Of a stretch of 64,000 nucleotides of DNA, positions 7,675 through 62,838 are shown piece after piece; positions within the stretch are counted from its first letter, which is position 1, and every line of letters starts with the position of its first letter. The notes under the pieces are model-generated. The model did no database searches and was not told the origin of the DNA. It was given only the letters and a program-made list of their open reading frames with translations. Source of the DNA: a phage; assembly GCA_012455605.1 (NCBI GenBank), contig GCA_012455605.1_3618.1; one strand, given 5' to 3'. Both the position numbers and the translations under genes were made by a program.

Positions 7675-8181
7675 ATGGCTAGATCAGTTGATTATCACGG
7701 ATATACCGTGTTTGATGATGGAACAATACCTTTATCGAAACGTGATCATACAACAATGTTTTGTTTTGATAATGGTCGAGGTTACCTTTGCGTAACCATG
7801 TTCATCGAAGGGAAGCAGTGCACAAAAGGTGTCCACCACTTGGTTGCCGAATGCTTTGTATCAAACCCTGATCCTGAAAGGCTCACATGGGTGAACCATA
7901 AGGACGGAAACAAATACAACAATGCATACTGGAACCTTGAATGGACCACCCCTGGTGGAAATATCAAACACGCTTATGATAATGACCTCAGAGTAAGGCC
8001 AGTCGGTGAGTATAATGCCAACGCTGTGCTGACCGAGGATGAGGTAACGGAGATTTGCGAGCTGTTACAGAGTGGTCTACGACAATGCGAGATTAGGGAT
8101 CTTGGGTACCCTTATGAGACGGTCAGAGCCATAAAGCAAAGAAGACAGTGGAAACATATCTCTAAAAACTACACCTGGTAG
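7675..8181 (+). CDS. HNH homing endonuclease (HNH_3/NUMOD-like)
   Basis: VNHKDGNKYNNAYWNLEW HNH motif; N-terminal YHGYTVFDDG; sits directly after the polymerase gene. Confidence 0.75.
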   Translation: MARSVDYHGYTVFDDGTIPLSKRDHTTMFCFDNGRGYLCVTMFIEGKQCTKGVHHLVAECFVSNPDPERLTWVNHKDGNKYNNAYWNLEWTTPGGNIKHAYDNDLRVRPVGEYNANAVLTEDEVTEICELLQSGLRQCEIRDLGYPYETVRAIKQRRQWKHISKNYTW

Positions 8182-8373
8182 TAACGTTCAGAGACTATCG
8201 AAAGCATAGCGCCAACATAAATTGGTGCGAAGAAGCGAGTAGAGTAGGCCAGCAAGTGCGGTCGAAATGGGAGGTGCCTTGGTAACAAGGTAGTGAGATA
8301 GTCCGATCCATACAGGAAACTGTATGGCTGTGCACGTAATGGTGCGGGGTAGCTTAACGACCTACCTGAACTA

Positions 8374-8730
8374 TTGGATGAGTACCAACTTCAGGTCCCT
8401 GACACACCTAAGTATAAGACTGTGTACACCTTCGACACAATCGAAGAACTGGAAGCATTTAAGGCAGAGCAGGAGGCCAAACTTCATGTGTTCGACGGTC
8501 ATAAGTACAAAAAGGCACGCAAGGATGAGGACGGAAACGAAGTGGTTGACAGAGACGGAAACACGGTGTACGATCCTATCCTGAACGATGACGGAAAGCT
8601 TGAACTTATCTGGAGCCCTGTGGGTGAAATGGTGGTGCATTGCTTCTGGCAAGCTTCTAAAATGATGGGCGTCCCGTTCCAGATCACAGGTGAATACCTG
8701 TGTGGTCGTAATTGGGGTGATTGTCACTAA
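8374..8730 (+). CDS. hypothetical protein
   Basis: 118 aa ORF; no recognisable motif. Confidence 0.4.
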   Translation: MDEYQLQVPDTPKYKTVYTFDTIEELEAFKAEQEAKLHVFDGHKYKKARKDEDGNEVVDRDGNTVYDPILNDDGKLELIWSPVGEMVVHCFWQASKMMGVPFQITGEYLCGRNWGDCH

Positions 8731-8779
8731 TGTAAACTATCAACACATGGAAGTGTTGTTGAGCAAAGAGGAGACTTTT

Positions 8780-9097
8780 ATGGTAGTAGAACCAACAAAA
8801 ACATTTACATCCATGACTATCCCTGTTATTATGCAGGTGGAGTGTGTTCAGGTATCTCAAGTGTGGCCAGGCACTAAAATCCCAACAGGGCCTGATTTCT
8901 TTCAGGTTGGGAAAGTGTACAATGTCTGGAAGGCACCAGATTGTCACCCTTTCATTAAAGAGAAGGCACCAAATTGCTACCCTTTCATCAAAGATGACCG
9001 TGGAATGCTGTGGTATCTTGGAAATGATTTGACACTGCACCTTGGGAATGCTATTATTGCAGTATTCAGACTTAACAAGAAGGAGACCGATCAATGA
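8780..9097 (+). CDS. hypothetical protein
   Basis: Start moved to the ATG at 8780 preceded by AGGAG; the track ORF from 8690 overlaps the upstream gene. Confidence 0.4.
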   Translation: MVVEPTKTFTSMTIPVIMQVECVQVSQVWPGTKIPTGPDFFQVGKVYNVWKAPDCHPFIKEKAPNCYPFIKDDRGMLWYLGNDLTLHLGNAIIAVFRLNKKETDQ

Positions 9098-9321
9098 CGA
9101 CTTTGGTTAAAGCTACCTTTGTAGAAGAAAAGATGACAGACCTGTCCTTCTTTAAAGAAGGAAAGACCTACGAGGTTTATTACGATAAAGCTCGTGCAAA
9201 CAAAATGATTAAAGACGAGGAAGGGGTTGCCTGGTATATCTCTCACCTGGCAAACGGTGAGTATCATATCTACGGAACCACTTTGCTTGCCAAGTTTGTA
9301 GTTGTTGAAGAGGACCTATGA
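9094..9321 (+). CDS. small acidic protein ending VVVEEDL
   Basis: 75 aa; C-terminal VEE-type tail as in the minus-strand small-protein family. Confidence 0.45.
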   Translation: MTTLVKATFVEEKMTDLSFFKEGKTYEVYYDKARANKMIKDEEGVAWYISHLANGEYHIYGTTLLAKFVVVEEDL

Positions 9322-9512
9322 AAGTAAAGTATCTTGCTGAAGGTATGAATAGGTATTTTACCCTTGGTGAAGAATATTGGCCCTTTACAAACAACGGCGA
9401 TGTCTACGTGAAAGATAATTTCGGCACGCCGTGGTTTCTGCACTCTAATGGGCTGGGATACTCCATTTACTGCGGTGCAGTGAACAACACAACTCTTGCA
9501 GAGTTCGTTTAG
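9318..9512 (+). CDS. hypothetical protein
   Basis: 64 aa ORF; start overlaps the previous stop. Confidence 0.35.
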   Translation: MKVKYLAEGMNRYFTLGEEYWPFTNNGDVYVKDNFGTPWFLHSNGLGYSIYCGAVNNTTLAEFV

Positions 9513-9522
9513 AGGAGGTAGG

Positions 9523-9894
9523 ATGTTAGTAAAAGGTACCCACACAGTCAAACAACGTATTGAAGTTGAGATTGATGATTGTGAGCTGAAGCATATTTTA
9601 CGGTCATGCTCCAACGTTTTGCTCCTTAGTATTCTTCAGGAGCGAGCGGAGAACGAGTTCTTAAATGCATTGGCAGGCCGTCCCGGTGACTTCTGTGTGC
9701 GTAAGCGTGGTGACAACAAGTCGTGGTTGTGGGAGATCGATGCCGACTGGGATTACCACAAAAATGAGGGTATAGATGAGCCTATTCGTGAACTGACGGA
9801 CAAAGAGATTCAGATGTACAATGAAGTTTGTCATTGGGCAACACGCCAACAAATTTACCTAGACCCTGTGTGGCTGATTGAAAATAGTCGTTGA
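9523..9894 (+). CDS. hypothetical protein
   Basis: Start moved to the ATG at 9523 with AGGAGG 6 nt upstream. Confidence 0.45.
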   Translation: MLVKGTHTVKQRIEVEIDDCELKHILRSCSNVLLLSILQERAENEFLNALAGRPGDFCVRKRGDNKSWLWEIDADWDYHKNEGIDEPIRELTDKEIQMYNEVCHWATRQQIYLDPVWLIENSR

Positions 9895-9919
9895 CAAGAA
9901 GTAAGGCTAGATGTAAGAT
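9891..9919 (+). promoter_or_regulatory. sigma70-like promoter (TTGACA-N17-TAAGAT)
   Basis: Consensus -35, 17 bp spacer, upstream of the gene at 9971. Confidence 0.45.
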
Positions 9920-9970
9920 ACTCCCCACAAACAGAGTATTGATTGTTAAATAATTAAGGAGACCTCTAAG

Positions 9971-10225
9971 ATGAAAATCATGTTGAAACCAGAATGCGTT
10001 GCAAACGACCGAGCTTTTAAAGATTGCACACTTGGCGCTACTTATGAAGCAGAGTTTTGTGAGAACCCTTTGGTAAAAGCCCTTCTGGAAGAAGGGGCCC
10101 CTTTATCACAAGAAGAGATTGATGAGCTGGAAAACTCAGCACAGTGCCTTACCTTTAAAGATGATGAAGGAGACTCTGTCTGGTGCACTGTTAATGAAGT
10201 AGTTTTTGTAAAACCTGAACATTAA
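9971..10225 (+). CDS. hypothetical protein
   Basis: 84 aa, AGGAGA ribosome-binding site. Confidence 0.45.
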   Translation: MKIMLKPECVANDRAFKDCTLGATYEAEFCENPLVKALLEEGAPLSQEEIDELENSAQCLTFKDDEGDSVWCTVNEVVFVKPEH

Positions 10226-10228
10226 TAC

Positions 10229-10257
10229 TTGACAACAGTGATAGGGCCTAATATAAT
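10229..10257 (+). promoter_or_regulatory. sigma70-like promoter (TTGACA-N17-TATAAT)
   Basis: Perfect -35 and -10 hexamers with 17 bp spacer. Confidence 0.6.
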
Positions 10258-10288
10258 GGCCCTATCAAAACGAAAGGGGACCACAGCA

Positions 10289-10561
10289 ATGACCAAACAA
10301 TATCAACGAATTAAGGCCAAGGTTAAGCCAGACTATCTGGAGAAAGACTCTGCTTTTCGGGACTGCACAGCCGACAAAGTTTACACAGGGGCCGTCCTGT
10401 TGAACGATGAACTTGAAGTAGATATTCTGGGTAAAGAGGCCACTATTAAGGACGACCAAGGCGATTATGTTTGCTGCACCACACGTGAGCTAGAAATCTT
10501 AGAATACTTCGGTGAAATCTTCACCTCTCTTGATGATTACTTAGATGATGAGGAAGCGTGA
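10289..10561 (+). CDS. hypothetical protein
   Basis: Start moved to the ATG at 10289, downstream of the consensus promoter (track ORF began inside the promoter). Confidence 0.45.
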   Translation: MTKQYQRIKAKVKPDYLEKDSAFRDCTADKVYTGAVLLNDELEVDILGKEATIKDDQGDYVCCTTRELEILEYFGEIFTSLDDYLDDEEA

Positions 10562-10950
10562 TGAAAAATATTTGGGATATCAATATCTTTGAAGCCTCTA
10601 AGCTTGATGGTGCTGATGGAGTGATTATGGTATCTGATGGCAAGGCAACACTAACTTCCGGAGATATCATCTATGCCTTGGACGAGCTGGCGCTTCTGAA
10701 ATCTACCGGTAACACTCTAGAGGAGCGTCTTCAAGGCTTCGCCTTCAAAGAAGGTACAAATACAGCCATGATGTGCACCACACGGACAGTTCAGATGGGT
10801 AACGGTGTCTATATGATTATTGCTGTGTGTCCTAAATTCAGCAACGTCAACAAAGATGATGCTGACGCGGTAAACGATGTGGTTGTTCTCTTCGTGGGTG
10901 ACGCTATGGCAGATCTGATGAATGCGGGAGAAGCAGCAAATGAAGACTGA
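10558..10950 (+). CDS. hypothetical protein
   Basis: 130 aa; ATGA start/stop overlap with the upstream gene. Confidence 0.45.
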   Translation: MMKNIWDINIFEASKLDGADGVIMVSDGKATLTSGDIIYALDELALLKSTGNTLEERLQGFAFKEGTNTAMMCTTRTVQMGNGVYMIIAVCPKFSNVNKDDADAVNDVVVLFVGDAMADLMNAGEAANED

Positions 10951-11242
10951 AAACATCACCCCAGCAGGGTTCTTAAAAGTATACCGTGAACTGCTGTATA
11001 CTACAGAGGACAGTGTTCTAGAGTATCCAGAATATCTCTTGCTGTATAAGTATCTGCAGGAGGCTGGTGAAAATCTGCCAGTTAGTGCAGAAGGCGGTCC
11101 GAACTGGGTATACAGCGCATGGAGAAAGGTTGACATTCTCCCAGACCCAGGCAAAGATATGGTAGTTTGGCAGCTTATCAACAACATCGGGATTCCAATC
11201 TTTGATGAAGCTGTTAAAATCTATTTTGAACTTGACGATTAA
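10922..11242 (+). CDS. hypothetical protein
   Basis: 106 aa ORF. Confidence 0.4.
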   Translation: MREKQQMKTENITPAGFLKVYRELLYTTEDSVLEYPEYLLLYKYLQEAGENLPVSAEGGPNWVYSAWRKVDILPDPGKDMVVWQLINNIGIPIFDEAVKIYFELDD

Positions 11243-11259
11243 TATCAGGAGACCTTAAG

Positions 11260-11505
11260 ATGACTGAAGTAGTTGCTCGCGCAGGACAGAAAGTACGTTG
11301 TGTTGAAGTAGGTTTTGGTGGCAAAGGGTGTCAAAACTTGACTCAAGGTAAGGAATACGCTGTTATCTCTGGTGGTGGCGACGAAAGTATTGTGTTCGAG
11401 GGCCACATCCTGGATGCTGAAAACTTTGAAATCTTTGACGACGATGGGGATCCGATCACCTGCCTGCTGGACGGGAATTGGGGAACTTTCGAAGTGATTG
11501 GCTAA
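11260..11505 (+). CDS. hypothetical protein
   Basis: 81 aa, AGGAGA ribosome-binding site. Confidence 0.45.
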   Translation: MTEVVARAGQKVRCVEVGFGGKGCQNLTQGKEYAVISGGGDESIVFEGHILDAENFEIFDDDGDPITCLLDGNWGTFEVIG

Positions 11506-11588
11506 CAAATACCTATTGTAATTTACAGAAGGGGATGCTAAAATAGTGTCTCCTTCTATGTTGTTCAAATAAAATCGGAGATTCCATA

Positions 11589-11954
11589 ATGGAACAAATG
11601 AACGATCAAGCGTCGGTTGCGATGAACGAGCAAGAACAACCTCAAGAATTTTTCTTAGGGTTAAGTAAAGATCAAGTGTCTCTTTTGCTAGTGCTTTCTT
11701 CTTTCATGGGAAGACTTCAGGAGCTCACACAACAACCGGAGGCTGAACAATTATTTCAGGCTCTGCGCGAAGAAGAAAAATATCGTCGTTTGGACTATGC
11801 CTTAGGTTGGGTAGCTCAACAACGAGATATGTTGATGGCCCTCTCTGGGACCACAAGTTTTGCAATGGGCCTGTTGGCTCAAGTTCAGGACAAATTAATT
11901 CAAGCAGGGTTTGCACACACGGCAAACACTAACGAAGAACAAGGAGACAAATAA
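11589..11954 (+). CDS. hypothetical protein
   Basis: 121 aa; start/stop overlap with the downstream gene. Confidence 0.45.
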   Translation: MEQMNDQASVAMNEQEQPQEFFLGLSKDQVSLLLVLSSFMGRLQELTQQPEAEQLFQALREEEKYRRLDYALGWVAQQRDMLMALSGTTSFAMGLLAQVQDKLIQAGFAHTANTNEEQGDK

Positions 11955-13180
11955 TGAGCGTTATTCAACAATTCGCTAACCCGATGAATCCGCGTGAAAC
12001 TGTTTTACTGGCTCACGGTATGATCAAGCGTGTTAGCATCAAACCTATTAAAGGGGCTGATCCTGCAACAGGTATTAAAACCACCGTGTGGCAAGGTAAG
12101 AAAATTGAATCCAGCCACACCATCTCTTTACTGATTTCTGAACTGGATTCCTCTGATAACCTGCTTCAAGGTGGCGAAGAAGTCTGGATCAGCATGGGTG
12201 ATAAGCTGCTTAAACCGGGTCATCAAGACTCTGTCTCTGTTAAGATTGATGACAAGTGGGAAACCGTAACACCAGGATGGATCGTAAATATCCCTTTGAA
12301 GGCAAACGAGCATAACGGTAAGACCTATTACAAAGGCTCACTGGCTAAGATGGTCAAGCTGGGTGCAGGAGAGGCTCCAGCAGCGACTCAGCAGCAAAAA
12401 CAGCAACAAGGTGCACAATCACAAGGCCAGAAGCAGAAACCTCAGCAGAATGCCAATCAGGACGTTTTACGCATCTATGGTGATGTGACTCAGATTGTTG
12501 GCAACGTGGTTACTGTTAATGACCACAAGATTGGCGAAGGTGCTATGGTTGTCACTGATGAGCAGCTTAAAGACCTAGTGGTAGGTGGTCGTGTTGCAGC
12601 CATTGTTGACAAAGACACTGGAAACATTATCAGTGGTTTCAAGGCCTACCCTCCTAAGGCAGAGAACGGCACTCAAGGCTCTGGTGGCAAGCGTAAATCC
12701 TCTTACGACCCTATCGGTGTGGAAACGGGGCATAGCATCAATGCGTTGCAGATCATCCTGGATCGCGGGTTTAAGGTAGACGACCCACTGGGCGTGGCTA
12801 AAACACTGCACGTAGTCACCATTGAGCTTAAGAAAGAGTATGCTCAAGCCACCAACCGAACTGAAGATGAAGTAGGTGCCAGTGTCGGTAATGCGGTGTT
12901 GAACGCTTGTCGCCGTATTGACAAGAAAACGAAAGTTGATGATTTTGCAGCGGCAATTACTGCAGAAGCAAAAGATGTCTTGACTAATCTGGCTGAGCCG
13001 TTGTACGATTGGATCAAGAACGGTGCTGGGTCAACTGACCATCAAGAACCTAAGGCTGCCAAACAGGAAGCAGCTCCACAGCAAAACACTGTAGACGCTC
13101 CTCCTGTAAATGATGGGGAAGATGACCCGATGGATCAGAATCCAGCACAGTACTCCTTTGATGATGACATCCCTTTTTAA
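11954..13180 (+). CDS. putative ssDNA-binding protein with SSB-type C-terminal tail
   Basis: Gln-rich linker and acidic C-terminus ending SFDDDIPF, identical to the E. coli SSB tip; N-terminal fold not recognised. Confidence 0.5.
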   Translation: MSVIQQFANPMNPRETVLLAHGMIKRVSIKPIKGADPATGIKTTVWQGKKIESSHTISLLISELDSSDNLLQGGEEVWISMGDKLLKPGHQDSVSVKIDDKWETVTPGWIVNIPLKANEHNGKTYYKGSLAKMVKLGAGEAPAATQQQKQQQGAQSQGQKQKPQQNANQDVLRIYGDVTQIVGNVVTVNDHKIGEGAMVVTDEQLKDLVVGGRVAAIVDKDTGNIISGFKAYPPKAENGTQGSGGKRKSSYDPIGVETGHSINALQIILDRGFKVDDPLGVAKTLHVVTIELKKEYAQATNRTEDEVGASVGNAVLNACRRIDKKTKVDDFAAAITAEAKDVLTNLAEPLYDWIKNGAGSTDHQEPKAAKQEAAPQQNTVDAPPVNDGEDDPMDQNPAQYSFDDDIPF

Positions 13181-13195
13181 CAATTAGTTAACATA

Positions 13196-13224
13196 GCCCT
13201 GCCCGAAAGGGTGGGGCATTTTTG
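13196..13224 (+). terminator. rho-independent terminator (second copy of the GCCCTGCCC-GAAA-GGGTGGGGC hairpin)
   Basis: Same stem-loop as at 2176, followed by ATTTTTG. Confidence 0.65.
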
Positions 13225-13242
13225 TATAAGGAGATCTGAAAA

Positions 13243-13953: not shown

Positions 13954-14021
13954 GAGACTGTGATAGCTATGTTTTATGATCTTCCTGTAGCACCACCACC
14001 TGTTGAACCCGGAGAACTAAG

Positions 14022-14920: not shown

Positions 14921-15146
14921 CACCACAACAATTGAGAGAGGGAGCACTATGGAGACTAAAATCTTAATTCTAGCTGTGATAGATACAACCGAAGGGGCTG
15001 TGTTCGAATCTGCAGGAGGGTATTTCTACCTACCCTACGGAAAAAGAACTGCCGAACCGGGTAAAGATTCAATCATCAAAGTGTTCCCGTGTGCTTTCTG
15101 GCTGGAGATTCTGGTATAAGATTGCAGAAGATTTGGGAGAGAATTA

Positions 15147-23900: not shown

Positions 23901-23917
23901 TTTCAACAGGTCATTTT

Positions 23918-24268
23918 ATGAAAGTCAAACTATATTACCTTAATGAGCTTAACCCCCTTGCCCAGGTCCGCGCCCTGGCTAATACCTTGATTTGTGAGAA
24001 ATCTGTATATTGTGTTGAGCTTAACGCCATGCGTGAACGTCTCAAAGGTGGTTACTTTGACATCCATGCTGCAATCAACGGCCTGAATATGGAATTTATC
24101 CGCTTACGTAACAGCAGCCGGAATCTGGCAAGAATGGAACAAGATCCGGCCCACCTTCGTAAGCTGGTTATTGAAAATCATCTGATGTTCAATGCCGAGG
24201 GTGATTATTACCATTTTCAACGAAAACGTTGGTACCGTGGCGGCAATACAGGCAAGAATGCAAAATAA
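23918..24268 (+). CDS. hypothetical protein
   Basis: 116 aa. Confidence 0.45.
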   Translation: MKVKLYYLNELNPLAQVRALANTLICEKSVYCVELNAMRERLKGGYFDIHAAINGLNMEFIRLRNSSRNLARMEQDPAHLRKLVIENHLMFNAEGDYYHFQRKRWYRGGNTGKNAK

Positions 24269-25385: not shown

Positions 25386-25631
25386 ATGAAAAGCAATAAA
25401 GGTTATAACGGTTACAAAAACAAAACTCATTGGAATGTAAGCCTTTGGATTAATAACGACGAGTCATTGTACCGGTTGGCCCAAGACTTTATTAACGCCA
25501 ATGCTAATCGTAATGATGCGGCGCGGGATATGATGCTTTTTCTGGAGCTAACCGGACAAGATAAGACCCCGGACGGCTTCAAGTACAGCACTACGGCGAT
25601 CCGTGCCGCGATGGTTGGAATGAAACACTAA
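25386..25631 (+). CDS. hypothetical protein
   Basis: Start moved to MKSNKGY with AGAGG upstream. Confidence 0.45.
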   Translation: MKSNKGYNGYKNKTHWNVSLWINNDESLYRLAQDFINANANRNDAARDMMLFLELTGQDKTPDGFKYSTTAIRAAMVGMKH

Positions 25632-26129
25632 AAGCACATAGCCGCCTTACCCTGGGGCCGTGGTAGCGGCCCCATGAATAAGGTTACTAACAGAAGAGAA
25701 TAAACACTATGAAACAGAAATTAATCGATGCAGTGATCTTGGTTATTGCCCTGGGTATTGGCCTGATTGCAACCATGGCTAATGTGATCTTGTCTTCCAA
25801 CGGTATCGGGTGAGGTTGGCAAATGATCACTAACAAAACAGGCAAAACAGAATTTTTACGCAACTTACAGATCGGCAAGCCTGAGATCTGGCATTGCACT
25901 AAAACACCACGTGACGAAATGAAAGACTTCACCGCCACGCTACAACGGGTAAAGATATCTATCACGCAGAAAAAGGCCTTACTAGTGGTGGAAGGGGAGA
26001 TCCCCCAAACCGTTGTTATAGTTGAGCGTACAGCATAGTTTAATTTATACCGATACCCGAAAATTAACCAACAAAGCATAAACAGGCGGTTACCGCCGCA
26101 TTAAACGTAGCAGAAAGAGGCTAGACACA

Positions 26130-45697: not shown

Positions 45698-46171
45698 CTA
45701 GTCTACCTGAACCCAACCGCCTGGTACTTTTTTAAACATTCTTTGGTTATCACTGCCTCGGAACGGTTTCTTGGTTGGTAAATCTTTTACATACTTACCG
45801 TCAATGATGATATCAGCCAGTTTAAGAACATCACTAGAGATATGGTCAAATGTGAACCCAGTATATACAAGAATAGTTTTCTTGTCACCAAATTTTTCCT
45901 TAATTTTCTCCATCAAGCTAATAATATCTGGCTCATTATAGTATGCTAAGGGTTCTCCCCCCAGCAGAGAGATACCGCACACAGATGGGTTATCTAAATC
46001 TGACAAGATTTTTTGTAAATCTTCTTCAGTGAACTCTCTCCCCTTATCTTTTGACCAAAATGCCTGATTAAAGCAACCAGGGCAAGCGTGTGGGCACCCA
46101 GATACCCACAAGGCAGTTCTAATACCTGGCCCTTCGGTGTAAGATATTTCTGCGTATCCGACAATATTCAT
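45698..46171 (-). CDS. nrdG: anaerobic ribonucleotide reductase activating protein NrdG (radical SAM)
   Basis: CPHACPGCFN radical-SAM cysteine motif; start set at MNIVGY, whose ATG overlaps the upstream small ORF's TGA. Confidence 0.85.
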   Translation of the reverse strand: MNIVGYAEISYTEGPGIRTALWVSGCPHACPGCFNQAFWSKDKGREFTEEDLQKILSDLDNPSVCGISLLGGEPLAYYNEPDIISLMEKIKEKFGDKKTILVYTGFTFDHISSDVLKLADIIIDGKYVKDLPTKKPFRGSDNQRMFKKVPGGWVQVD

Positions 46172-46284
46172 AGATACTCCGCATCGCATTCAGGGCAATG
46201 CCAAATAAAATCGTCCAGTGCCTTGCACCAACGAAGATTGCAACGACAACCGCACTTGCAAATTTTATAAATACCTGTAGACAT
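46168..46284 (-). CDS. small Cys-rich protein (38 aa), translationally coupled to nrdG
   Basis: MSTGIYKICKCGCRCNLRWCKALDDFIWHCPECDAEYL; AGGAGG 6 nt upstream; ATGA overlap with nrdG. Confidence 0.4.
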   Translation of the reverse strand: MSTGIYKICKCGCRCNLRWCKALDDFIWHCPECDAEYL

Positions 46285-56862: not shown

Positions 56863-56877
56863 GCCTCCCTATAATTG

Positions 56878-57861
56878 TTAGATTATCTGAATCAGGGTAT
56901 TTTTCATTTCTTCTCTGGTGCGGATGTTGTTACGGTCACGAACAACAGATCCACAACCTTCGCAGCGGTATGTTTTAAATGCACTCAGTTGAGTATATGC
57001 CAAAGCTTCTTCCTCGTGAAGGTGTTCTCCACCACATCGTGGGCAACGAACCTTTGGCTCCTCGTCCTGGTAGTACAATGACATGTTTGGGTGCTGCTTA
57101 GCAAACGGGCGAGCCAGCAAATACAGTCCTTCCAGAGACAGGATATCACCAACATTATACTCCCGCATCTGTTTAAATGCCTCAAGATCGCCATGGACAC
57201 ACTTGATCCACATTTCAAATGTGTGATCAATCAGTTTCTGTCGGGCCAGTTGGAAGTATTTGCATGCATACTCCAAAGTGTTTGCATTCAAACGGAATGC
57301 CTTCTTGATCATTTTAAGGGTGTCAACCTCTTTGTAGGGGCTTGTTGGAGGCAACCCGTGAAATGCAAATCGTTGGTTGGCCCACCCGCAGTCAAAACCT
57401 GAATTGTGGGCTACTGCGACATCGCATTTATCCAGATAATACCACAAATCCTGAATCAATTCGAGATCATTGTGAATATCCTCATCCCACATTTTGTAAT
57501 CGGGAAGAGCGCAGTCAACCACACTAGGGCTGTCTAACCACTTACCTGCGAAAGTTAGCATATAAGGCATAACTTCAATACCACAGGTTTGAATGTTGGT
57601 CTTATAGTGCCCAAAGAACCAGCCGTTTGTTGGGGATGTCTCTGTATCATACACCCAAACTTTAGCGCCTTTGTGCTCTTCAAGGAAGCGCTCCGTTGCT
57701 TCTCCTACAATCTCTGACATATTCTCTTGTGCACGTTTAAGCTGTAGTCGGATCCAGCTCTCACGTGACTCACGACCTAAAAATTCACGAGCAATTTGTC
57801 TATTAGTGTATCCCTGTTGCTTTAGTGTTAAAATTTGCTCAAGAGTTAACTTTGTCATCAT
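56878..57861 (-). CDS. DEDD-family 3'-5' exonuclease with N-terminal HTH and C-terminal zinc ribbon
   Basis: Exo I VYDTETS, Exo II AHNSGFDCGW; N-terminal GYTNRQIAREF HTH-like; C-terminal CPRCGG...CEGCGS. Confidence 0.65.
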   Translation of the reverse strand: MMTKLTLEQILTLKQQGYTNRQIAREFLGRESRESWIRLQLKRAQENMSEIVGEATERFLEEHKGAKVWVYDTETSPTNGWFFGHYKTNIQTCGIEVMPYMLTFAGKWLDSPSVVDCALPDYKMWDEDIHNDLELIQDLWYYLDKCDVAVAHNSGFDCGWANQRFAFHGLPPTSPYKEVDTLKMIKKAFRLNANTLEYACKYFQLARQKLIDHTFEMWIKCVHGDLEAFKQMREYNVGDILSLEGLYLLARPFAKQHPNMSLYYQDEEPKVRCPRCGGEHLHEEEALAYTQLSAFKTYRCEGCGSVVRDRNNIRTREEMKNTLIQII

Positions 57862-57873
57862 CGTTAAGATTCC

Positions 57874-58095
57874 TTAGTAAAACTGAAGAATGTCTTTTAA
57901 AGCGAAGTCACGATATTCGCCCTTGTCTACATCGAAGGCACGCATCAACCACTGCTCTTCTTTATGATACTCTGTAGAACCAAACCATAAATTAGGCTCA
58001 GTAACGCAGCGATCTGCAACAACACCTTTCCAGTTACGGTATTTCATCCTGATCAGGACCGAGTCGCAAGGATTGAATACCTTTTTCATCCCCAT
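57874..58095 (-). CDS. hypothetical protein
   Basis: 73 aa. Confidence 0.4.
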   Translation of the reverse strand: MGMKKVFNPCDSVLIRMKYRNWKGVVADRCVTEPNLWFGSTEYHKEEQWLMRAFDVDKGEYRDFALKDILQFY

Positions 58096-58639
58096 AGAAA
58101 TCTCTCTCCTCAGTTTTCTTTATAAACTCCTGCATGTAGAACTCAATAGCCTCATGCTTGGTGCACTCCGGATCAATGACAAGATTGAGATCTGATTCTG
58201 CTCGTGCAATAATCGTAGCTTTAGAGCATCGCCTCAAGAACTTTGTCATATCATCTCTGTAGTTTTTGTGGAGCGGGAAGTCGCTGTAGTCTTTCTCCAA
58301 ATAGTCAGCAATCCGGCGCAACGCCTCTGATAAACTGCAATCTGTATACTCGTTACAGTATTTCATCCAGTATTTAAGCACATACCCCTCAAAGGTATTA
58401 GTGCATTGAGACAAAACACCCCTGCAACGACCAGTCAGATGATCATGATCTAAACAAGGCTTACGAAGTGGCTCGCACAAGATCGGATCAAGACCATCCT
58501 GCTCCTCTGACAATTCTTTTCGAAAGTTGGCTATGTCCTTAGAATCTTTTAACCACCCGTTATGAACTGGGGCTTTGACAGCTTTCTTTCTTATTTTACG
58601 CTTTGCGATAATCCCTCCAGATGAGCCCTGCCTATCCAA
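58034..58639 (-). CDS. recombination endonuclease VII-like
   Basis: CLDHDHLTGRCRGVLSQCTN matches the Endo VII zinc/HxDH core. Confidence 0.7.
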   Translation of the reverse strand: MDRQGSSGGIIAKRKIRKKAVKAPVHNGWLKDSKDIANFRKELSEEQDGLDPILCEPLRKPCLDHDHLTGRCRGVLSQCTNTFEGYVLKYWMKYCNEYTDCSLSEALRRIADYLEKDYSDFPLHKNYRDDMTKFLRRCSKATIIARAESDLNLVIDPECTKHEAIEFYMQEFIKKTEERDFYGDEKGIQSLRLGPDQDEIP

Positions 58640-59220
58640 TAAGCATCTGCGAGATCGGCCTTACCTTGTACCAAATTGATCCCGTCTAGGAACCCAGGTT
58701 CAGATACTTCGCAGGCCTTAACCATCAACTTTTTATCCATTGTAACAGGTTTCTTCACAGTATGCTCTTTACCTGTCTTTTTGTCAAGCTTTTTCTTCTC
58801 CTCAAAAGCAAGTTCTTCAGGAAGATGACTACGAGCAAACTTTTTGGCAGTTGTTGGTGTCACTGTGTGGACCTTAAACAGGCCGTCATTTTCACAATCA
58901 GCTAAGGCATCCCAAAGCATAATTTCAAGACCGTAAAACAACCCAGCCAGTTCACGTGTGGCATCCCCGCGTGATCCAAAGGAAAGCCCTTCCATAACCA
59001 CGGTGTCAACGTGATGCGTGTGGATATAATATCTGACCTGTTTGCAGATCCAGTCAATACGCTCAGCAGCTGTTGCAAAAGAAACCGTCCCTGGTTTCTT
59101 CTCTTTTGCAGATGAGCTTTGAGTTCGTAACACAACCTTATGAACAGGCTTTCCATCGTCCCATACAACGCAAGCTGTGTGTGTCAACGACTGGTCTATG
59201 GATAATAGACGCTCTCTCAT
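58591..59220 (-). CDS. RuvC-like Holliday junction resolvase
   Basis: LSIDQSLTHTACVVWD (first Asp), VVMEG (Glu), DAYWIGRAHLE (C-terminal Asp) in RuvC-like order. Confidence 0.55.
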   Translation of the reverse strand: MRERLLSIDQSLTHTACVVWDDGKPVHKVVLRTQSSSAKEKKPGTVSFATAAERIDWICKQVRYYIHTHHVDTVVMEGLSFGSRGDATRELAGLFYGLEIMLWDALADCENDGLFKVHTVTPTTAKKFARSHLPEELAFEEKKKLDKKTGKEHTVKKPVTMDKKLMVKACEVSEPGFLDGINLVQGKADLADAYWIGRAHLEGLSQSVK

Positions 59221-59552
59221 GCTTCCTCATCCTCCTCTCCTTCATCAGGAGCATAAGCCTTATCTTTGAACAAGACGAGAGAGCAAAGCTTAACATCTGT
59301 TTCCACACTGGTGAACATGCATAACCGCTCGCCCTCAATCAACTCACAATCCTCTTTTAAAACAGCAGACCATACACGGTCATCTGCGTAATCATCTGTG
59401 TACAGGATGTATGAAATAGTGTCATCTTCATACAACCGCCACATACCTGTGGCAACAATAAATGTATTTTTTGTTTTAATGGTCCCTGTTGTATGATCAT
59501 CCTCAAAAACAGCTTCCATAATTGCACTATCTACAGAATTTTTAGTCATCAA
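59217..59552 (-). CDS. hypothetical protein
   Basis: 111 aa. Confidence 0.45.
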   Translation of the reverse strand: MMTKNSVDSAIMEAVFEDDHTTGTIKTKNTFIVATGMWRLYEDDTISYILYTDDYADDRVWSAVLKEDCELIEGERLCMFTSVETDVKLCSLVLFKDKAYAPDEGEEDEEA

Positions 59553-60688
59553 ATTGCTCCAACATTTCTAAGAACGTTAACAAGTTTTGTTTGATCATTG
59601 AATGTTCGCTTCATATACAAACAGTCAAAAATTATACTCATCCATTGACCTACGGAAATTCTACGATCAACACCATTGAAGTCAGTATACTTAACAACAC
59701 CTTTCGGGAACCACTTCTTGTACTGATCAATAATAGCCACCCACATCTCCTTTGGAGTGCTGCACTGAGACAGTAGGTAGAATGCTGAGGCATCCCCGAA
59801 CTTACCCTTACCGATAAGTCCTTGATACGGCTTGATGTTGTCAGCAGAGTCACCACACAGCATTTGGTATCCGAAGAACAGCATTCCGTAACCACCAACC
59901 TCTCCATTAGGCTTCATGAAGATGTTACCCATACCGTTATCGATCAGCATAGGGGTTTCCCTTACAAAATCTCCCTTATCGTTTCGCATGGGATCGAACA
60001 CAAGCCCCGGTAGTGTTCTTTGGTCCTTATCAATAGAGATAATAAACTTGTTGAACTTACCTGTTTTTTGGTAGTGGTTCCAACCTTCAAATTGCTGGAT
60101 AGCTAACCAGTCATCAGCCTCTATACCGTTGATCACTTGAGCATTATACTGCTTTTGGAGATACTGTCTTGCATCTCCAAGCAGCAGTGGTCGAAGAGTA
60201 TTGTTACGGTTGGCTTTATATCTTTCCGGCATGGGAAGATCTAGTCTGAAATTACCTGTGCCCCCAAGTACCCCCACGCACCGATCTTCCGGAATACCGA
60301 GATAATTAAGGACTGCATTAGCTTTACACTTAATTGTGTGCAAGCAGTTCTCTACAGGATCAGGGGTTTGGATATCCAAGACATCGAAATCTTCCCGTGT
60401 CCACGGAATAAACTCCTTGCCAGCCTTTTTACATGCAGCTTCACGGTTGGTATTCTCAGCTTTTAACCAACCACCAACGGTGTTCTTCTGCCGCCCCCAG
60501 AACTCTGTTCGTGTTTTAAACATCTTCTTACGTCCGGAGGCTTTGTGTGTTACCTCAATTGTCCTTTTTTCACAACTTGCTGCAGCTTGATATGCAACCT
60601 GATCGAAGTCATAATAAACTATAGCGTCAGGTTCAAGAAGATCAGCCAGACAATCTATGGACTCAATAAGTGGATATTCTCTACTCAA
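59549..60688 (-). CDS. 5'-3' exonuclease / flap endonuclease (FEN family)
   Basis: YKANR, GIEADD and H3TH GDSADNIKPYQGLIGKG motifs. Confidence 0.85.
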   Translation of the reverse strand: MSREYPLIESIDCLADLLEPDAIVYYDFDQVAYQAAASCEKRTIEVTHKASGRKKMFKTRTEFWGRQKNTVGGWLKAENTNREAACKKAGKEFIPWTREDFDVLDIQTPDPVENCLHTIKCKANAVLNYLGIPEDRCVGVLGGTGNFRLDLPMPERYKANRNNTLRPLLLGDARQYLQKQYNAQVINGIEADDWLAIQQFEGWNHYQKTGKFNKFIISIDKDQRTLPGLVFDPMRNDKGDFVRETPMLIDNGMGNIFMKPNGEVGGYGMLFFGYQMLCGDSADNIKPYQGLIGKGKFGDASAFYLLSQCSTPKEMWVAIIDQYKKWFPKGVVKYTDFNGVDRRISVGQWMSIIFDCLYMKRTFNDQTKLVNVLRNVGAI

Positions 60689-60989
60689 AGACCCTCCTGT
60701 TAGTTATTCTGCAAGATGGTTGGATGCTGTAATGGAATGCATCATCACTTTCTGCAATAAGTGACTCAACATCCCAATACTTTTCAAAAAGGAACGGATT
60801 AGAACCCCAGTGATGAGTTATTTTCATCAAGGAGTCTGGTATCAGATAACCAGAGATCTTAACTACATCGCCAGGTTGAATTGTGTTTTCATGAAGGTTG
60901 CTTGCCTTCTTCAGGATCATACCTTTATGATTCTCGTTTGCATACAACTGGACAATATCTTTATCTTCAACAATAAAAATTTTAAGCAT
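60681..60989 (-). CDS. hypothetical protein
   Basis: 102 aa. Confidence 0.45.
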   Translation of the reverse strand: MLKIFIVEDKDIVQLYANENHKGMILKKASNLHENTIQPGDVVKISGYLIPDSLMKITHHWGSNPFLFEKYWDVESLIAESDDAFHYSIQPSCRITNRRVFE

Positions 60990-61048
60990 ATCTAGTTCTC
61001 CTGGTTTATAAATATCTGAACGATAATATCAGATTAATAACACTTTTG

Positions 61049-61342
61049 TCAAGACTTTTTAGTCTTTCTTGGAGAGCTTTTTGTTGATCTTTTCCTTTTG
61101 TGGTAGATTCCAAGTGCAGCGTTTTCTTGGGCGCACGTTTTAACAGTTCTCAGACAAGAACTTTCAGCTTTAGGCAGGTTTAACTCCCACCAACCAAGCC
61201 AGTAAAGTTCTGATTCAGACAACTGCTCAGATTCAGCCTTCCGATACAAGGCTTGCATACCTCTGATGATATCGTCCAGAGGTGTATCGAATACAAAAGC
61301 TGTCTTATCGAATTTCTCTTTTACAGGTCTCTTAGCCATCAA
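61049..61342 (-). CDS. hypothetical basic protein
   Basis: 97 aa with Lys/Arg-rich C-terminus. Confidence 0.45.
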   Translation of the reverse strand: MMAKRPVKEKFDKTAFVFDTPLDDIIRGMQALYRKAESEQLSESELYWLGWWELNLPKAESSCLRTVKTCAQENAALGIYHKRKRSTKSSPRKTKKS

Positions 61343-61847
61343 GGTAACCCTCTATCCACGAAAAGTCAGTCTTCCATTCTGGAACTTTACTAAGCTCACG
61401 CCACTCTGCAAAGCAGTCTCGGTAATACGCCTCTGCCATACCTTTAGTGATCTTATTCACCTTAGCCAACTGATTAACTGCCTGAGCATACTTTCCACGG
61501 ATATTTGCTAACCCAGGATGCACCGATGTGTGACAATCTGGGCATAATGCTATCAGTCCGACAAGCCGGATCACTCCCTCTTCGAAAGTGTAAAGTTCAT
61601 GACACTCCACTGGGTGTTTGCTGCCTTTACCGCCGCACACCTCACAGGTGTAGTTGGCTTCTCTATAGCACTTCTTGCGGATCTTATCCCACTCACTCTT
61701 CTTCACAGCGTTTCGGAGGTTATTATACCAAGCTGTTTCTGGGATCAGTTGCACAATAAGCCTTCGTTCAGACTTCATTAAACGTCCGTCTTCCACGTGT
61801 TCTCCCTCATTCAAAGAAATGGGTGCGAGGGCAGGAACCTGCCTCAC
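61332..61847 (-). CDS. HNH endonuclease (McrA-like zinc-binding HNH)
   Basis: CEVCGG...ECHELY...LCPDCHTSVH pattern. Confidence 0.6.
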   Translation of the reverse strand: MRQVPALAPISLNEGEHVEDGRLMKSERRLIVQLIPETAWYNNLRNAVKKSEWDKIRKKCYREANYTCEVCGGKGSKHPVECHELYTFEEGVIRLVGLIALCPDCHTSVHPGLANIRGKYAQAVNQLAKVNKITKGMAEAYYRDCFAEWRELSKVPEWKTDFSWIEGYLDG

Positions 61848-62076
61848 CTTGTTTCACAAGCTCGTAGAGCTCACCTTGGCTTGTCTCATAAAGGCAAATA
61901 CGTTTACCATTGTCACGATATACATCGACAATATACGCTGTTTCACCTGCAAACACGACACCACAGGCCAGACATGCCGCCATGAACAAAATTGCCAACA
62001 GAAAATCTTTCATGGTTAAACCCCCTCAAACATTTTATGAGGTAACAATACCACGTCCGTGTGGTTATGTCAATGA

Positions 62077-62838
62077 TCAATCCTCAACACAAGGTCTTGG
62101 ATAGCCTCTGGATAACTTCCACTCAGTTAGTGACATCCCTCCGTAGAGACAGTTTACTTCCCAAGACTTTCTTGCACAAACTGCCTCCCACCACGGATTT
62201 AGCCACTTCCTGTCGTTGAAGCATCTTAAGTTTCTTCCTTTGTTATCTCGTGCCCTCCAACAGGTATCTTTCTTAGACCAATCAATACCTGGCAGGATAT
62301 TATTCTTGTGCGGGTTTGGAACTATCTTTAAAGCCTCTTCCGGGTTGGCTATTGACCATTCAACCCTAGACTTAGCCTCTTCGAAAGTGTCAAAATCTCC
62401 CAACCTAACATTTACCCTATTTATCCTTCTACTTGCCCTCCACTTACCCTCTCTTTTCAGCCATACCACACCAGTCACTGTAGAGGTGTTATTGCTTTGC
62501 ACATTTTCCAAGGCTCTCTTACAGTAGTTATCCCAAGGCTTCAACATTTGAAGGTTTTCTATCTTGTCTACAGGCACTCCGTTAGTAGAATTTTTCTTAG
62601 AGACGATATGATCGATATGCCAAGTATCTGTGACACATCCGTAAAACATGTCAAAAATTTCCCTATGTCTGCCACGTTTAACATTTGTCAGCTTATTGTA
62701 CACTTGGAAATATCCAGTCTTTTTGTTGTAGTGTCCAGCCCTATTTCCATTCCTACTGTAGCCAGGTTTCCAAAAGATTAGATCACCATCCTTGTACCAA
62801 TAAGGATAGTAATCATTAAAAAAGAAATGTATCTTCAT
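62077..62838 (-). CDS. HNH homing endonuclease with AP2-like domain
   Basis: WHIDHIVSKKNSTNG...NLQML HNH_3 motif; GVVWLKREGKWRA AP2-like segment. Confidence 0.7.
   Translation of the reverse strand: MKIHFFFNDYYPYWYKDGDLIFWKPGYSRNGNRAGHYNKKTGYFQVYNKLTNVKRGRHREIFDMFYGCVTDTWHIDHIVSKKNSTNGVPVDKIENLQMLKPWDNYCKRALENVQSNNTSTVTGVVWLKREGKWRASRRINRVNVRLGDFDTFEEAKSRVEWSIANPEEALKIVPNPHKNNILPGIDWSKKDTCWRARDNKGRNLRCFNDRKWLNPWWEAVCARKSWEVNCLYGGMSLTEWKLSRGYPRPCVED

What the first reader, a model, noticed from the sequence alone, without database searches (positions are those of the whole stretch)
7675..62838. Three HNH endonuclease genes inserted beside essential replication and lysis genes
HNH genes lie right after the DNA polymerase (7675-8181) and between the flap endonuclease and lysozyme (61332-61847, 62077-62838). 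This placement is typical of free-standing homing endonucleases.
Basis: partly seen in the sequence, partly recalled or inferred. Interest (0 to 1): 0.4.

Follow-up and report, generated by a model that had tools for sequence, protein, structure and literature searches.

The report
Three HNH genes, three different stories
In this rV5-like E. coli phage, one HNH gene sits inside a self-splicing intron that splits the DNA polymerase gene, one is a mobile gene linked to an alternative lysozyme gene, and one is a conserved core phage gene; all three are ordinary, already-described kinds of feature.

Summary
The window comes from an rV5-like coliphage (Vequintavirus).

1. **7675-8181 is inside the polymerase gene, not after it.**
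   - It lies in the P6 loop of an 842-nt group I intron (7535-8376).
   - The intron splits polA between the His and the Asp-Glu of catalytic motif C. Joining 7534 to 8377 gives a 925-aa polymerase.
   - Among about 127 relatives, about half have no intron, about 30 have the intron without the ORF, and 31 have it with the ORF.
   - A close relative already annotates the polymerase as a joined CDS.

2. **61332-61847 (probable start 61796) is not mobile.** It is a single-copy core gene in all Vequintavirinae genera examined. It always sits in the same nuclease module upstream of the 5'-3' exonuclease, and its zinc and catalytic residues are invariant.

3. **62077-62838 (HNH plus AP2-like domain) behaves like a free-standing homing endonuclease.**
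   - It is present in 20 of about 120 relatives.
   - It is always linked to a divergent endolysin allele (54% aa identity to rV5's).
   - rV5 has an empty site, and FV3/nimi carry a different HNH at the same place.

These are known kinds of element, so interest is low.

The parts
5111..7534 (+). DNA polymerase A, exon 1 (808 codons, ends ...RRIIYYH; last base T)
   Evidence: ORF. Pfam DNA_pol_A. The intron-less relative is contiguous across this point.
7535..8376 (+). Group I intron (842 nt). It has a U.G pair at the 5' splice site in P1, a terminal G at 8376, and helices P1-P9.2 including the P3/P7 pseudoknot and P7.1/P7.2.
   Evidence: RF00028 full-length match, 40.6 bits, E 9.8e-9 on the slice and 6.6e-7 on the whole window. 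ORF-less homologues score 64.7-72.5 bits against a gathering score of 50. Covariation is shown. Boundaries come from intron-less alleles.
7675..8181 (+). HNH 1: intron-encoded I-HmuI-like HNH endonuclease (168 aa), located in the P6 loop
   Evidence: phrog_59 E 9.3e-38. Best solved structure is 1U3E, I-HmuI, E 4.5e-6, with the HNH motif aligned. Intact homologues occur in the same intron in three other relatives from three genera.
7655..7671 (+). 5' arm of the extended P6 stem. It covers the Shine-Dalgarno sequence (AAGGGG) and the spacer of HNH 1.
   Evidence: The 9-nt perfect complement 7663-7671 / 8167-8175. Duplex energy -16.6 to -17.2 kcal/mol, kept with compensatory change in Av-05 and with a different sequence in AV124.
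8167..8182 (+). 3' arm of the extended P6 stem (last codons and stop codon of HNH 1)
8377..8730 (+). DNA polymerase A, exon 2 (117 codons, starts DEYQLQV, the DE of motif C)
   Evidence: The spliced junction aligns to T7 polymerase ...WVHDEIQV. tblastn is contiguous and 100% identical in intron-less typing phage 14.
61332..61796 (-). HNH 2: conserved core zinc-finger HNH nuclease (rv5_gp087 homologue, 154 aa from the GTG at 61796)
   Evidence: phrog_5200 E 3.5e-72. Found in 237 phage records across Vequintavirinae genera. Synteny with the exonuclease module. Cys4, His and Glu are invariant.
59549..60688 (-). 5'-3' exonuclease (T7 gp6 / SP6-like), the conserved downstream partner of HNH 2
   Evidence: phrog_107 E 5.7e-71. 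Annotations.
62077..62838 (-). HNH 3: free-standing HNH plus AP2-like homing endonuclease gene (253 aa)
   Evidence: phrog_99 E 1.2e-19. Sub-threshold AP2 hit. Present in 20 of about 120 relatives.
62083..63348 (-). Replacement cassette (HNH 3, hairpin, and all but the first 14 codons of the endolysin gene) with no nucleotide similarity to rV5
   Evidence: Local blastn breakpoints at 62082/62083 and 63348/63349. The cassette is found whole in 20 records and nowhere else.
62893..63390 (-). Endolysin (lambda R-like, GH104-type), the allele linked to HNH 3. It is 54% aa identical to rV5 endolysin.
   Evidence: phrog_90 and phrog_17029. Alignment. This allele occurs in exactly 20 records.
62045..62073 (-). 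Sigma-70-like promoter of the next operon (rV5 P90), starting 4 nt after the HNH 3 stop codon. It marks the conserved right-hand edge of the insertion site.
   Evidence: rV5 annotation

Best explanation
The three HNH genes are three different things.

(1) HNH 1 (7675-8181) is the homing-endonuclease ORF of a mobile group I intron (7535-8376). The intron interrupts the phage's family-A DNA polymerase gene between the His and the Asp-Glu of catalytic motif C. The intron RNA folds into a ribozyme and splices itself out, joining 7534 to 8377 to give mRNA for a 925-aa polymerase. Unspliced message would give a product lacking the motif C carboxylates. The HNH ORF sits in the P6 loop. Its ribosome-binding site is paired with the 3' end of its own ORF, which both closes P6 and probably limits its translation. 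By analogy with I-HmuI and I-BasI, the enzyme nicks intron-less polymerase alleles near the insertion site during mixed infection, and repair then copies the intron in.

(2) HNH 2 (61332-61796) is a vertically inherited core gene of Vequintavirinae, a Cys4 zinc-finger HNH nuclease. It most likely works with the adjacent 5'-3' exonuclease, RuvC-like and EndoVII nuclease module in DNA processing (recombination or host-DNA breakdown). It does not behave as a selfish element.

(3) HNH 3 (62077-62838) is a free-standing HNH/AP2-type homing endonuclease. It arrived together with a foreign endolysin allele as one cassette. It most likely cuts the common rV5-type endolysin region in co-infecting relatives, so that repair co-converts the HNH gene and its linked, resistant endolysin allele.

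Shown here: gene identities, intron structure and boundaries, and the distributions among relatives. Inferred: splicing in vivo, nuclease activities and targets, and the role of HNH 2.
For: Intron:
- The polA frame breaks at YYH|K* and resumes at DEYQLQV.
- The spliced junction aligns to T7 polymerase HDE.
- RF00028 matches over the full model with a 510-nt insert. ORF-less homologues pass the gathering score at 64.7-72.5 bits.
- On six intron variants, 98.4% of cells pair and 24 of 64 pairs show compensatory changes, against 36-41% and 0-4 in slid controls. This includes the P3/P7 pseudoknot.
- Intron-less relatives carry an uninterrupted 925-aa gene with the junction CCAT|GAC.
- Of about 127 relatives, 61 have the intron core and 31 have the ORF.
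- Silent differences cluster in the first 21 nt of exon 2.
- HNH 1's best solved relative is I-HmuI.
- Bas58 annotates the polymerase as a joined CDS.
- Polymerase introns in the related phage CB7 splice by RT-PCR (PMC7344957).

HNH 2:
- 237 records, one copy in all but one, about 50% identity between genera.
- Always just upstream of the exonuclease module.
- Invariant CxxC...ECHE...CxxCH.

HNH 3:
- HNH 3 and the divergent endolysin allele are each in 20 records, and the whole cassette is in 20 records.
- rV5 has an empty site with sharp breakpoints.
- A different HNH (35% identity) occupies the same site in nimi/FV3. There the endolysin's identity to rV5 decays over the last ~150 nt next to that HNH.
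Against: No experiment was done here. Splicing, nicking and homing are inferred.

The window's own intron scores below Rfam's gathering threshold (40.6 against 50), which is attributable to the 510-nt ORF insert.

In HNH 1 the residue before the catalytic His is Asn rather than the Asp seen in I-HmuI. A relative (AV124) has Asp at this position.

The perfect linkage of HNH 3 with its endolysin allele cannot separate homing from a single ordinary recombination event followed by descent.

The role of HNH 2 rests only on gene neighbourhood. Its structure prediction failed.

The 9-nt P6 closing stem is by itself about as frequent as expected by chance in 842 nt. Its support comes from its position and its conservation.
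Confidence: 0.8

Rival explanations
1. One reading: all three are free-standing homing endonuclease genes that inserted beside (not within) essential genes.
For: All three are HNH-family proteins. HNH 3 is polymorphic with empty sites. Free-standing HNH genes are common in this phage group, for example the extra one before polA in FFH2.
Against: HNH 1 lies inside a ribozyme-folded intron that splits polA at motif C. HNH 2 is universal, single-copy and syntenic across genera.
Confidence: 0.04
2. The polymerase is a truly split gene made as two polypeptides that assemble. The HNH gene is a free-standing element between the two halves, and no RNA splicing occurs.
For: Most GenBank records annotate two separate polymerase CDSs. 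Split phage genes separated by homing endonuclease genes do exist (my knowledge: the nrdA split by mobE in Aeromonas phage Aeh1).
Against: The intervening sequence has a complete group I core with strong covariation. The break falls within the invariant HDE triplet. The second piece has only a TTG with no Shine-Dalgarno sequence before it. ORF-less versions of 276-343 nt are retained in about 30 phages, which is unexplained if the spacer had no function. Related CB7 polymerase introns splice.
Confidence: 0.04
3. HNH 3 is a passenger. The endolysin-plus-HNH block was acquired once by ordinary modular recombination and spread by descent. The nuclease is inactive or irrelevant to its spread.
For: HNH 3 and the endolysin allele are perfectly linked in 20 records, with no intermediate forms. 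The source of the cassette is not in the phage database; nearest homologues are below 60% and 37% identity.
Against: The cassette occurs in genomes that differ in their polymerase-intron state: ECO111 5-P has no intron and SophiaRose has the intron with the ORF. This points to spread by recombination rather than simple clonal descent. A second, unrelated HNH has invaded the same site with a local divergence gradient in the endolysin 3' end. The HNH motif (HIDH...N...N) is intact.
Confidence: 0.2
4. HNH 2 is an old homing endonuclease that has gone to fixation and is still purely selfish.
For: It is annotated as a 'homing endonuclease' in several records. It belongs to the HNH family, whose members include group II intron and IscB nuclease domains.
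Against: There are no empty sites in 237 records. Its divergence tracks the host phage (about 50% identity between genera). Zinc and catalytic residues are invariant, which implies purifying selection on function. Its position in a nuclease operon is conserved, and its end overlaps the next gene.
Confidence: 0.12

Closest known systems
Group I introns with HNH nicking endonucleases in phage family-A DNA polymerase genes: SPO1 I-HmuI, SP82 I-HmuII, Bastille I-BasI, Pf-WMP3 I-PfoP3I, and phiI/W31 I-TslI
   Same: [quoted passage not shown] 1U3E (I-HmuI) is the best solved relative. PMC3428280 places the phiI/W31 intron at E. coli Pol I 'site 881'. By my knowledge of Klenow numbering (H881-D882-E883), that is the same His|Asp position as here.
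   Different: The host is a large rV5-like myovirus of E. coli. At nucleotide level the intron family is shared with polymerase genes of other Vequintavirinae genera and of some Aeromonas, Vibrio and Shewanella phages, not with Bacillus phages. I could not compare directly with phiI/W31 because the paper is not held and no such hit appeared. The SPO1-type introns sit at site 674, not 881.
Annotated polymerase introns in Vequintavirinae: BASEL phage Bas58 HeinrichReichert (joined polA CDS) and Pectobacterium phage CB7 (RT-PCR-verified splicing)
   Same: Bas58 is 97.6% identical over this region and carries the same 842-nt intervening sequence and a homologous HNH ORF (97.0% nt identity), annotated as a two-piece polymerase CDS of 2778 nt. 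The CB7 polymerase introns with HNH genes splice in vivo.
   Different: The original rV5 paper describes the polymerase as 775 aa and mentions introns only in the terminase. Most records annotate two separate polymerase CDSs. The three-state polymorphism was not described in the papers I read.
Free-standing phage homing endonucleases that co-convert flanking genes (my knowledge: T4 seg and mob genes; T4 mobE in PMC2790892)
   Same: HNH 3 is an intergenic, polymorphic HNH gene next to a conserved gene. Flanking sequence is diverged in genomes that carry it, and the site can be empty or occupied by an alternative endonuclease gene.
   Different: Here the whole neighbouring endolysin gene (all but 14 codons) is a different allele at 54% aa identity, rather than a short co-conversion tract. 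Activity and target are untested.
Zinc-finger HNH nuclease domains (group II intron maturase En domain, IscB/Cas9 HNH, McrA-like)
   Same: HNH 2 has the CxxC...H...CxxCH layout. Its weak best matches are to a group II intron maturase HNH domain (6ME0, E 0.015) and IscB (NF040563, E 4.6e-4).
   Different: These matches are far below family cut-offs. HNH 2 is a stand-alone 154-aa protein fixed in a phage nuclease operon, and no function has been tested.

Membership tests
Group I catalytic intron (Rfam RF00028) | Conserved catalytic core: P3-P9 helices with the P3/P7 pseudoknot and the R/S consensus elements | tested here: met
   Full-length model match 1-253. All ten helices tested are 93-100% paired across six variants, and 24 of 64 pairs show compensatory changes, against 0-4 in slid controls. 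GUUCAGAGACUA and GAGAUAGUCC are visible in the sequence.
Group I catalytic intron (Rfam RF00028) | Score at or above Rfam's gathering threshold (50 bits) | tested here: inconclusive
   The window copy scores 40.6 bits because of a 510-nt ORF insert in P6. The same intron without the ORF (JLBYU08) scores 72.5, rV5 scores 64.7 and KP12 scores 69.8.
Group I catalytic intron (Rfam RF00028) | U.G wobble at the 5' splice site in P1, terminal G at the 3' end, and restoration of the host reading frame on removal | tested here: met
   The P1 pair U7534.G is invariant in six variants. The intron ends ...UAUUG at 8376. Removal gives ...YYH-DEYQ..., identical to the intron-less relatives.
Group I catalytic intron (Rfam RF00028) | Guanosine-dependent self-splicing | not testable with these tools
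   Needs in vitro transcription and splicing, or RT-PCR. The only indirect support is RT-PCR on related CB7 introns.
Intron-encoded HNH homing endonuclease (I-HmuI-like) - HNH 1 | HNH (His-Me finger) catalytic motif | tested here: met
   VNHKDGNKYNNAYWNLEW aligns to I-HmuI VDHKDGNKDNNLSTNLRW. The His and Asn residues are invariant in four homologues, while the Asp before the His is Asn here.
Intron-encoded HNH homing endonuclease (I-HmuI-like) - HNH 1 | The ORF lies in a peripheral loop of a self-splicing intron, and both intron-less and ORF-less alleles exist in relatives | tested here: met
   The ORF replaces a 14-nt P6 hairpin seen in the ORF-less introns. Counts are 31 with the ORF, about 30 without the ORF and about 65 without the intron.
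Intron-encoded HNH homing endonuclease (I-HmuI-like) - HNH 1 | Site-specific nicking or cleavage of the intron-less allele, and homing | not testable with these tools
   Only indirect evidence: a cluster of silent differences in the first 21 nt of exon 2 between intron-plus and intron-less alleles.
Free-standing homing endonuclease - HNH 2 | Sporadic presence/absence among close relatives (empty sites) | tested here: not met
   Present in all 119 Vequintavirus-level records (at least 95% identity) and in 118 records of other genera, one copy in all but one. The synteny is the same in CR3 and KE23.
Free-standing homing endonuclease - HNH 3 | Sporadic presence/absence among close relatives, in an intergenic position next to a conserved gene | tested here: met
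   Found in 20 of about 120 relatives. rV5 has an empty site with 98% identical flanks. A different HNH occupies the same site in nimi/FV3.
Free-standing homing endonuclease - HNH 3 | Nuclease motif plus a DNA-binding module | tested here: met
   WHIDHIVSK...ENLQML is the HNH motif. The AP2-like repeat is sub-threshold in Pfam (21.7 against 33.3 bits) but is shared with the nimi HNH.
Free-standing homing endonuclease - HNH 3 | Cleavage of the allele lacking the gene, and super-Mendelian inheritance | not testable with these tools
   Needs a cleavage assay and phage crosses.

The most novel reading that the evidence does not exclude
The intron-encoded HNH 1 may be more than a selfish passenger. 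It could act as a weapon in competition between co-infecting rV5-like phages, as reported for the PhiPA3 intron endonuclease (PMC11620839). About half of known relatives carry the intron-less polymerase allele, so nicking at catalytic motif C would damage a rival's polymerase gene while the carrier's interrupted allele is protected. A second, less novel reading is that HNH 2 is a domesticated HNH nuclease that became an obligatory partner of the T7 gp6-like exonuclease throughout Vequintavirinae.
Probability: 0.2. Interest if true: 0.45.

Novelty: already known. Interest (0 to 1): 0.2.

Why it matters
The main value is for annotation and comparative genomics.

- **Polymerase annotation.** The polymerase of this phage group is one 925-aa protein made from a spliced message. 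It is not a 775-809-aa protein plus a small 'hypothetical' ORF, as many database records and the original rV5 paper have it.
- **Use of the label 'homing endonuclease'.** The label should not be applied to every phage HNH gene. Here, one of the three is a fixed core gene.
- **Material for experiments.** The three-state polymerase locus and the endolysin-linked cassette give natural donor and recipient pairs for studying homing in a therapeutically used coliphage group.

None of this opens a new question.

Tried and rejected
- **Rfam at gathering threshold on the whole window** found nothing. The intron appeared only with the permissive E-value search and was then confirmed through the ORF-less homologues.
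- **Pfam** gave only sub-threshold hits for HNH 1 and HNH 3 and none for HNH 2. **NCBIfam** gave nothing useful. PHROGs was needed.
- **PDB sequence search** for HNH 3 gave no meaningful hit, and for HNH 2 only a marginal hit to a maturase HNH domain.
- **Single-sequence AlphaFold of HNH 2** was poor (mean pLDDT 53.5) and was discarded, so no fold search was run.
- **Large-database homologue searches** were not spent on HNH 2, because its distribution in the phage collection already settled the mobility question.
- **The Bonocora and Shub 2004 paper on phiI/W31** could not be read. The claim that the insertion site is the same as in those phages therefore rests on a secondary citation plus my own knowledge of Klenow numbering.
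- **The promoter/terminator scan** gave nothing above shuffled expectation. The hairpin between the endolysin gene and HNH 3 does not meet the terminator criteria.
- **The 'split gene without splicing' reading** and the **'HNH 2 is a fixed selfish element' reading** were considered and rejected; see the rival explanations.

Full report
**Origin of the window.** Megablast of the polymerase region and of the exonuclease-endolysin region finds 120-127 records. Nearly all are Escherichia phages of the genus Vequintavirus (rV5-like), at 94-99% identity. Local blastn shows the window is collinear with rV5 positions about 134,500 down to 70,500.

**Check of the observation.** ORFs exist at all three stated positions, and all three match PHROG families annotated as HNH endonucleases:
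- 7675-8181: phrog_59, E 9.3e-38.
- 61332-61847: phrog_5200, E 3.5e-72.
- 62077-62838: phrog_99, E 1.2e-19.

Pfam is weaker. It gives sub-threshold HNH_3 for the first, nothing for the second and a sub-threshold AP2 domain for the third. phmmer with five HNH queries against all six-frame ORFs of the window finds no further relatives. The genes are therefore real. What needs correcting is their described context.

**HNH 1 lies in a group I intron inside the polymerase gene.**

*The reading frame is interrupted at motif C.*
- The polA ORF (5111-7540) ends ...RRIIYYHK*.
- 837 nt further on, an ORF begins (TTG)GATGAG... = DEYQLQV.
- Joined as YYH|DEYQ, the sequence aligns to T7 DNA polymerase ...AWVHDEIQV, the catalytic motif C.

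*Intron-less relatives fix the boundaries.*
- tblastn with the joined sequence matches O157 typing phage 14, ECO111 5-P, YN3, Alma and ECP2303 as one uninterrupted piece at 98-100% identity.
- Typing phage 14 annotates a single 2778-nt polymerase CDS.
- The DNA alignment places the intervening sequence at 7535-8376, that is ...TATTACCAT | 842 nt | GATGAGTAC....

*The intervening sequence is a group I ribozyme.*
- Rfam RF00028 matches over its whole model (1-253) with a 510-nt insertion. The score is 40.6 bits, with E 9.8e-9 on the slice and 6.6e-7 on the whole window, where it is the only hit.
- That is below the 50-bit gathering score. The same intron without the ORF scores 72.5 bits (JLBYU08), 64.7 (rV5) and 69.8 (Klebsiella phage KP12).
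- I aligned six variants of the intron core from four genera (Vequintavirus, Avunavirus, Mydovirus and a Klebsiella vequintavirus), with the P6 insert removed.
- On that alignment I counted pairs for P1, P2, P3, P4/P5, P7, P7.2, P8, P9, P9.1 and P9.2, with P3/P7 written as a pseudoknot.
- 98.4% of cells pair and 24 of 64 pairs carry compensatory changes. With the partners slid by 1-3 columns, 36-41% pair and 0-4 pairs are compensatory.
- The last exon base U7534 forms the invariant U.G pair in P1, and the intron ends in G8376.
- By eye, P7.1 and P7.2 are present, so the intron is of the IA type usual in phages.

**The ORF and its control.**
- The ORF-less introns have a 14-nt hairpin where the window has 528 nt containing the HNH ORF, so the ORF sits in the P6 loop.
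- The ends of the insert pair with each other. ACTA...GGTGTAGTT (7655-7671) covers the Shine-Dalgarno sequence and spacer. It pairs with AACTACACC...TAGT (8167-8182), which covers the last codons and the stop codon.
- The duplex energy is -16.6 to -17.2 kcal/mol. Av-05 keeps the duplex through a compensatory change, and AV124 forms an equivalent duplex over its own start codon.
- A 9-nt complement is not rare by chance in 842 nt. I therefore rate the proposed translational masking as inferred rather than shown.
- The protein's best solved relative is I-HmuI (1U3E, E 4.5e-6), the nicking HNH enzyme of the SPO1 polymerase intron, with the HNH motif aligned.
- Full-length homologues at 57-98% identity sit in the same intron in FFH2, Av-05 and AV124.

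**Distribution of the intron.** Of about 127 relatives with the polymerase region:
- 61 have the 3' intron core: 37 of the window type and about 24 of the more diverged 276-nt rV5 type.
- 31 have the HNH ORF.
- So roughly half have no intron, about 30 have an ORF-less intron, and 31 have the full element.

Other points on distribution:
- Intron-plus and intron-less alleles differ by a cluster of silent changes in the first 21 nt of exon 2. All five intron-plus alleles shown have GAT where the two intron-less alleles have GAC, and the variants GAG/GAA, TAC/TAT and CAA/CAG also occur.
- Such a cluster is what co-conversion or target-site immunity would leave. The T at +3 would also allow a P10 pairing GAUG/CAUU with the guide sequence. 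That last point is my inference.
- The same intron at the same His|Asp site occurs in other Vequintavirinae genera. Related cores occur in polymerase genes of some Aeromonas, Vibrio and Shewanella phages.

**What was already known about the intron.**
- BASEL phage Bas58 (97.6% identical here) annotates the polymerase as a two-piece joined CDS with the homing endonuclease inside it. The BASEL paper states that intron boundaries were annotated.
- In the related Certrevirus CB7, polymerase introns with HNH genes were shown to splice by RT-PCR.
- The rV5 genome paper reports a 775-aa polymerase and mentions introns only in the terminase.
- Polymerase introns with HNH nickases are classic. SPO1, SP82, Bastille and Pf-WMP3 carry them at site 674, and phiI/W31 at site 881 in E. 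coli Pol I numbering. By my knowledge of Klenow numbering (H881-D882-E883), site 881 is the same position as here.

**HNH 2 is a core gene.**
- The homologue rv5_gp087 is present in rV5, SophiaRose and nimi in the same place, with its end overlapping the next gene.
- tblastn finds it in 237 phage records, 238 places in all. 119 records are at 95% identity or more (all the Vequintavirus-level genomes). 118 are below 60%, mostly at 47-57%, in Cronobacter, Salmonella, Klebsiella, Pectobacterium, Erwinia and Enterobacter vequintaviruses.
- In CR3 (Certrevirus) and KE23 (Seunavirus) it lies directly upstream of the same 5'-3' exonuclease, small ORF, RuvC-like and EndoVII gene run.
- The four zinc cysteines, the ECHE histidine and the CxxCH histidine are invariant at about 50% overall identity.
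- The only outside similarities are weak: a group II intron maturase HNH domain (E 0.015) and IscB (E 4.6e-4).
- I commit to a host-beneficial nuclease acting with the neighbouring exonuclease in recombination or host-DNA breakdown. By analogy, this resembles the T7 endonuclease/gp6 exonuclease pair. That role is inference from neighbourhood only.
- The likely start is the GTG at 61796, which has a good Shine-Dalgarno sequence.

**HNH 3 is a polymorphic cassette with an alternative endolysin.**

*Breakpoints.*
- Against rV5, the window is 98% identical up to 62082 and again from 63349.
- The 1266 nt between these points (HNH 3, a GC-rich hairpin, and all but the first 14 codons of the endolysin gene) replace 423 nt of rV5 endolysin, with no nucleotide similarity.

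*The endolysin allele.*
- The two endolysins are homologous but only 54% identical in protein sequence.
- HNH 3 occurs in 20 records, this endolysin allele in 20, and the whole cassette in 20 of 120.
- The next-nearest homologues are below 60% identity for the lysin and below 37% for the HNH, all in unrelated phages.

*The insertion site.*
- In rV5 the endolysin stop codon directly precedes the conserved promoter of the next operon, so the site is empty there.
- In nimi/FV3 a different HNH/AP2 gene (35% identity over the motif region) occupies the same site.
- In those phages the endolysin is rV5-like except for its last ~150 nt, where identity decays next to the HNH gene.
- Two independent invasions of one site, each with divergence next to the endonuclease gene, fit intron-less homing with co-conversion.

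*Mosaic distribution.* The cassette assorts independently of the polymerase-intron state:
- ECO111 5-P has the cassette but no intron.
- Bas58 has the intron with the ORF but no cassette.
- SophiaRose has both.

Activity and target are untested, so a single ordinary recombination event followed by descent remains possible.

**Verdict.**
- Everything found belongs to well-described classes, and close relatives already carry the key annotation. Novelty is 'already known' and interest is low.
- The most novel reading not excluded is that the polymerase-intron nuclease serves in competition between co-infecting relatives, as shown for PhiPA3 (the paper surfaced).

Noticed in passing
window 13175/13176 (compare NC_011041 121386-122009): rV5 carries a 624-nt 'endonuclease' gene (rv5_gp208, cysteine-rich N-terminus) that is cleanly absent from the window. 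This is an empty site for a different putative mobile nuclease gene.
   Followed up: partly
L005 412-1146 (FFH2), compared with the window intergenic region 5053-5110: FFH2, WalterGehring and some other relatives have an extra HNH gene between the primase/helicase gene and polA. It is 32% identical to HNH 3. The window lacks it.
   Followed up: partly
L006 412-3810 (Mangalyan), corresponding to after codon 671 of the window polA (about 7123): Mangalyan (and, by its similar extra span, VB-EcoM-WM) has a 323-aa in-frame insertion in polymerase exon 1 between NGDAH and QNNAE. It begins CYSGDTQILTEKGW, which looks like an intein. The same polymerase gene can therefore carry an intein, an intron and a flanking HNH gene.
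   Followed up: partly
window 45816-46174 (5' part of nrdG, ORF 45698-46189, minus strand): This stretch has no nucleotide match to the corresponding 747 nt of rV5 (87948-88694), although the flanks are 94-97% identical. The nrdG 5' region is a different allele, and the small rV5 ORFs gp110/gp111 appear to be missing.
   Followed up: no
window 23903-24257, 25401-25691 and 15118-15143: Small insertions and deletions relative to rV5 in the block of short early genes: about 355 nt extra, a ~290-nt stretch with no rV5 match, and about 205 nt missing. Their content was not examined.
   Followed up: no
relatives' genomes outside the window ('places in record' = 2): Several close relatives show a second genomic place with similarity to the polymerase intron core. 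This may be the terminase intron described for rV5 (not checked). Within the window, no second group I intron is found.
   Followed up: no
window 60681-60989 and 61049-61342 (minus strand): Two small genes lie between HNH 2 and the exonuclease and are annotated 'transposase' or 'transposase-like' in relatives. They match only PHROG families and have no Pfam or NCBIfam support. They are absent from this position in CR3 and KE23, where HNH 2 directly abuts the exonuclease. The transposase label looks doubtful.
   Followed up: partly
database records MG0656xx ('Campylobacter phage' C7, C12, A141 and others): About 20 records labelled as Campylobacter jejuni phages are 97-100% identical to this E. 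coli rV5-like phage. This suggests mislabelled hosts or contamination in that data set.
   Followed up: no
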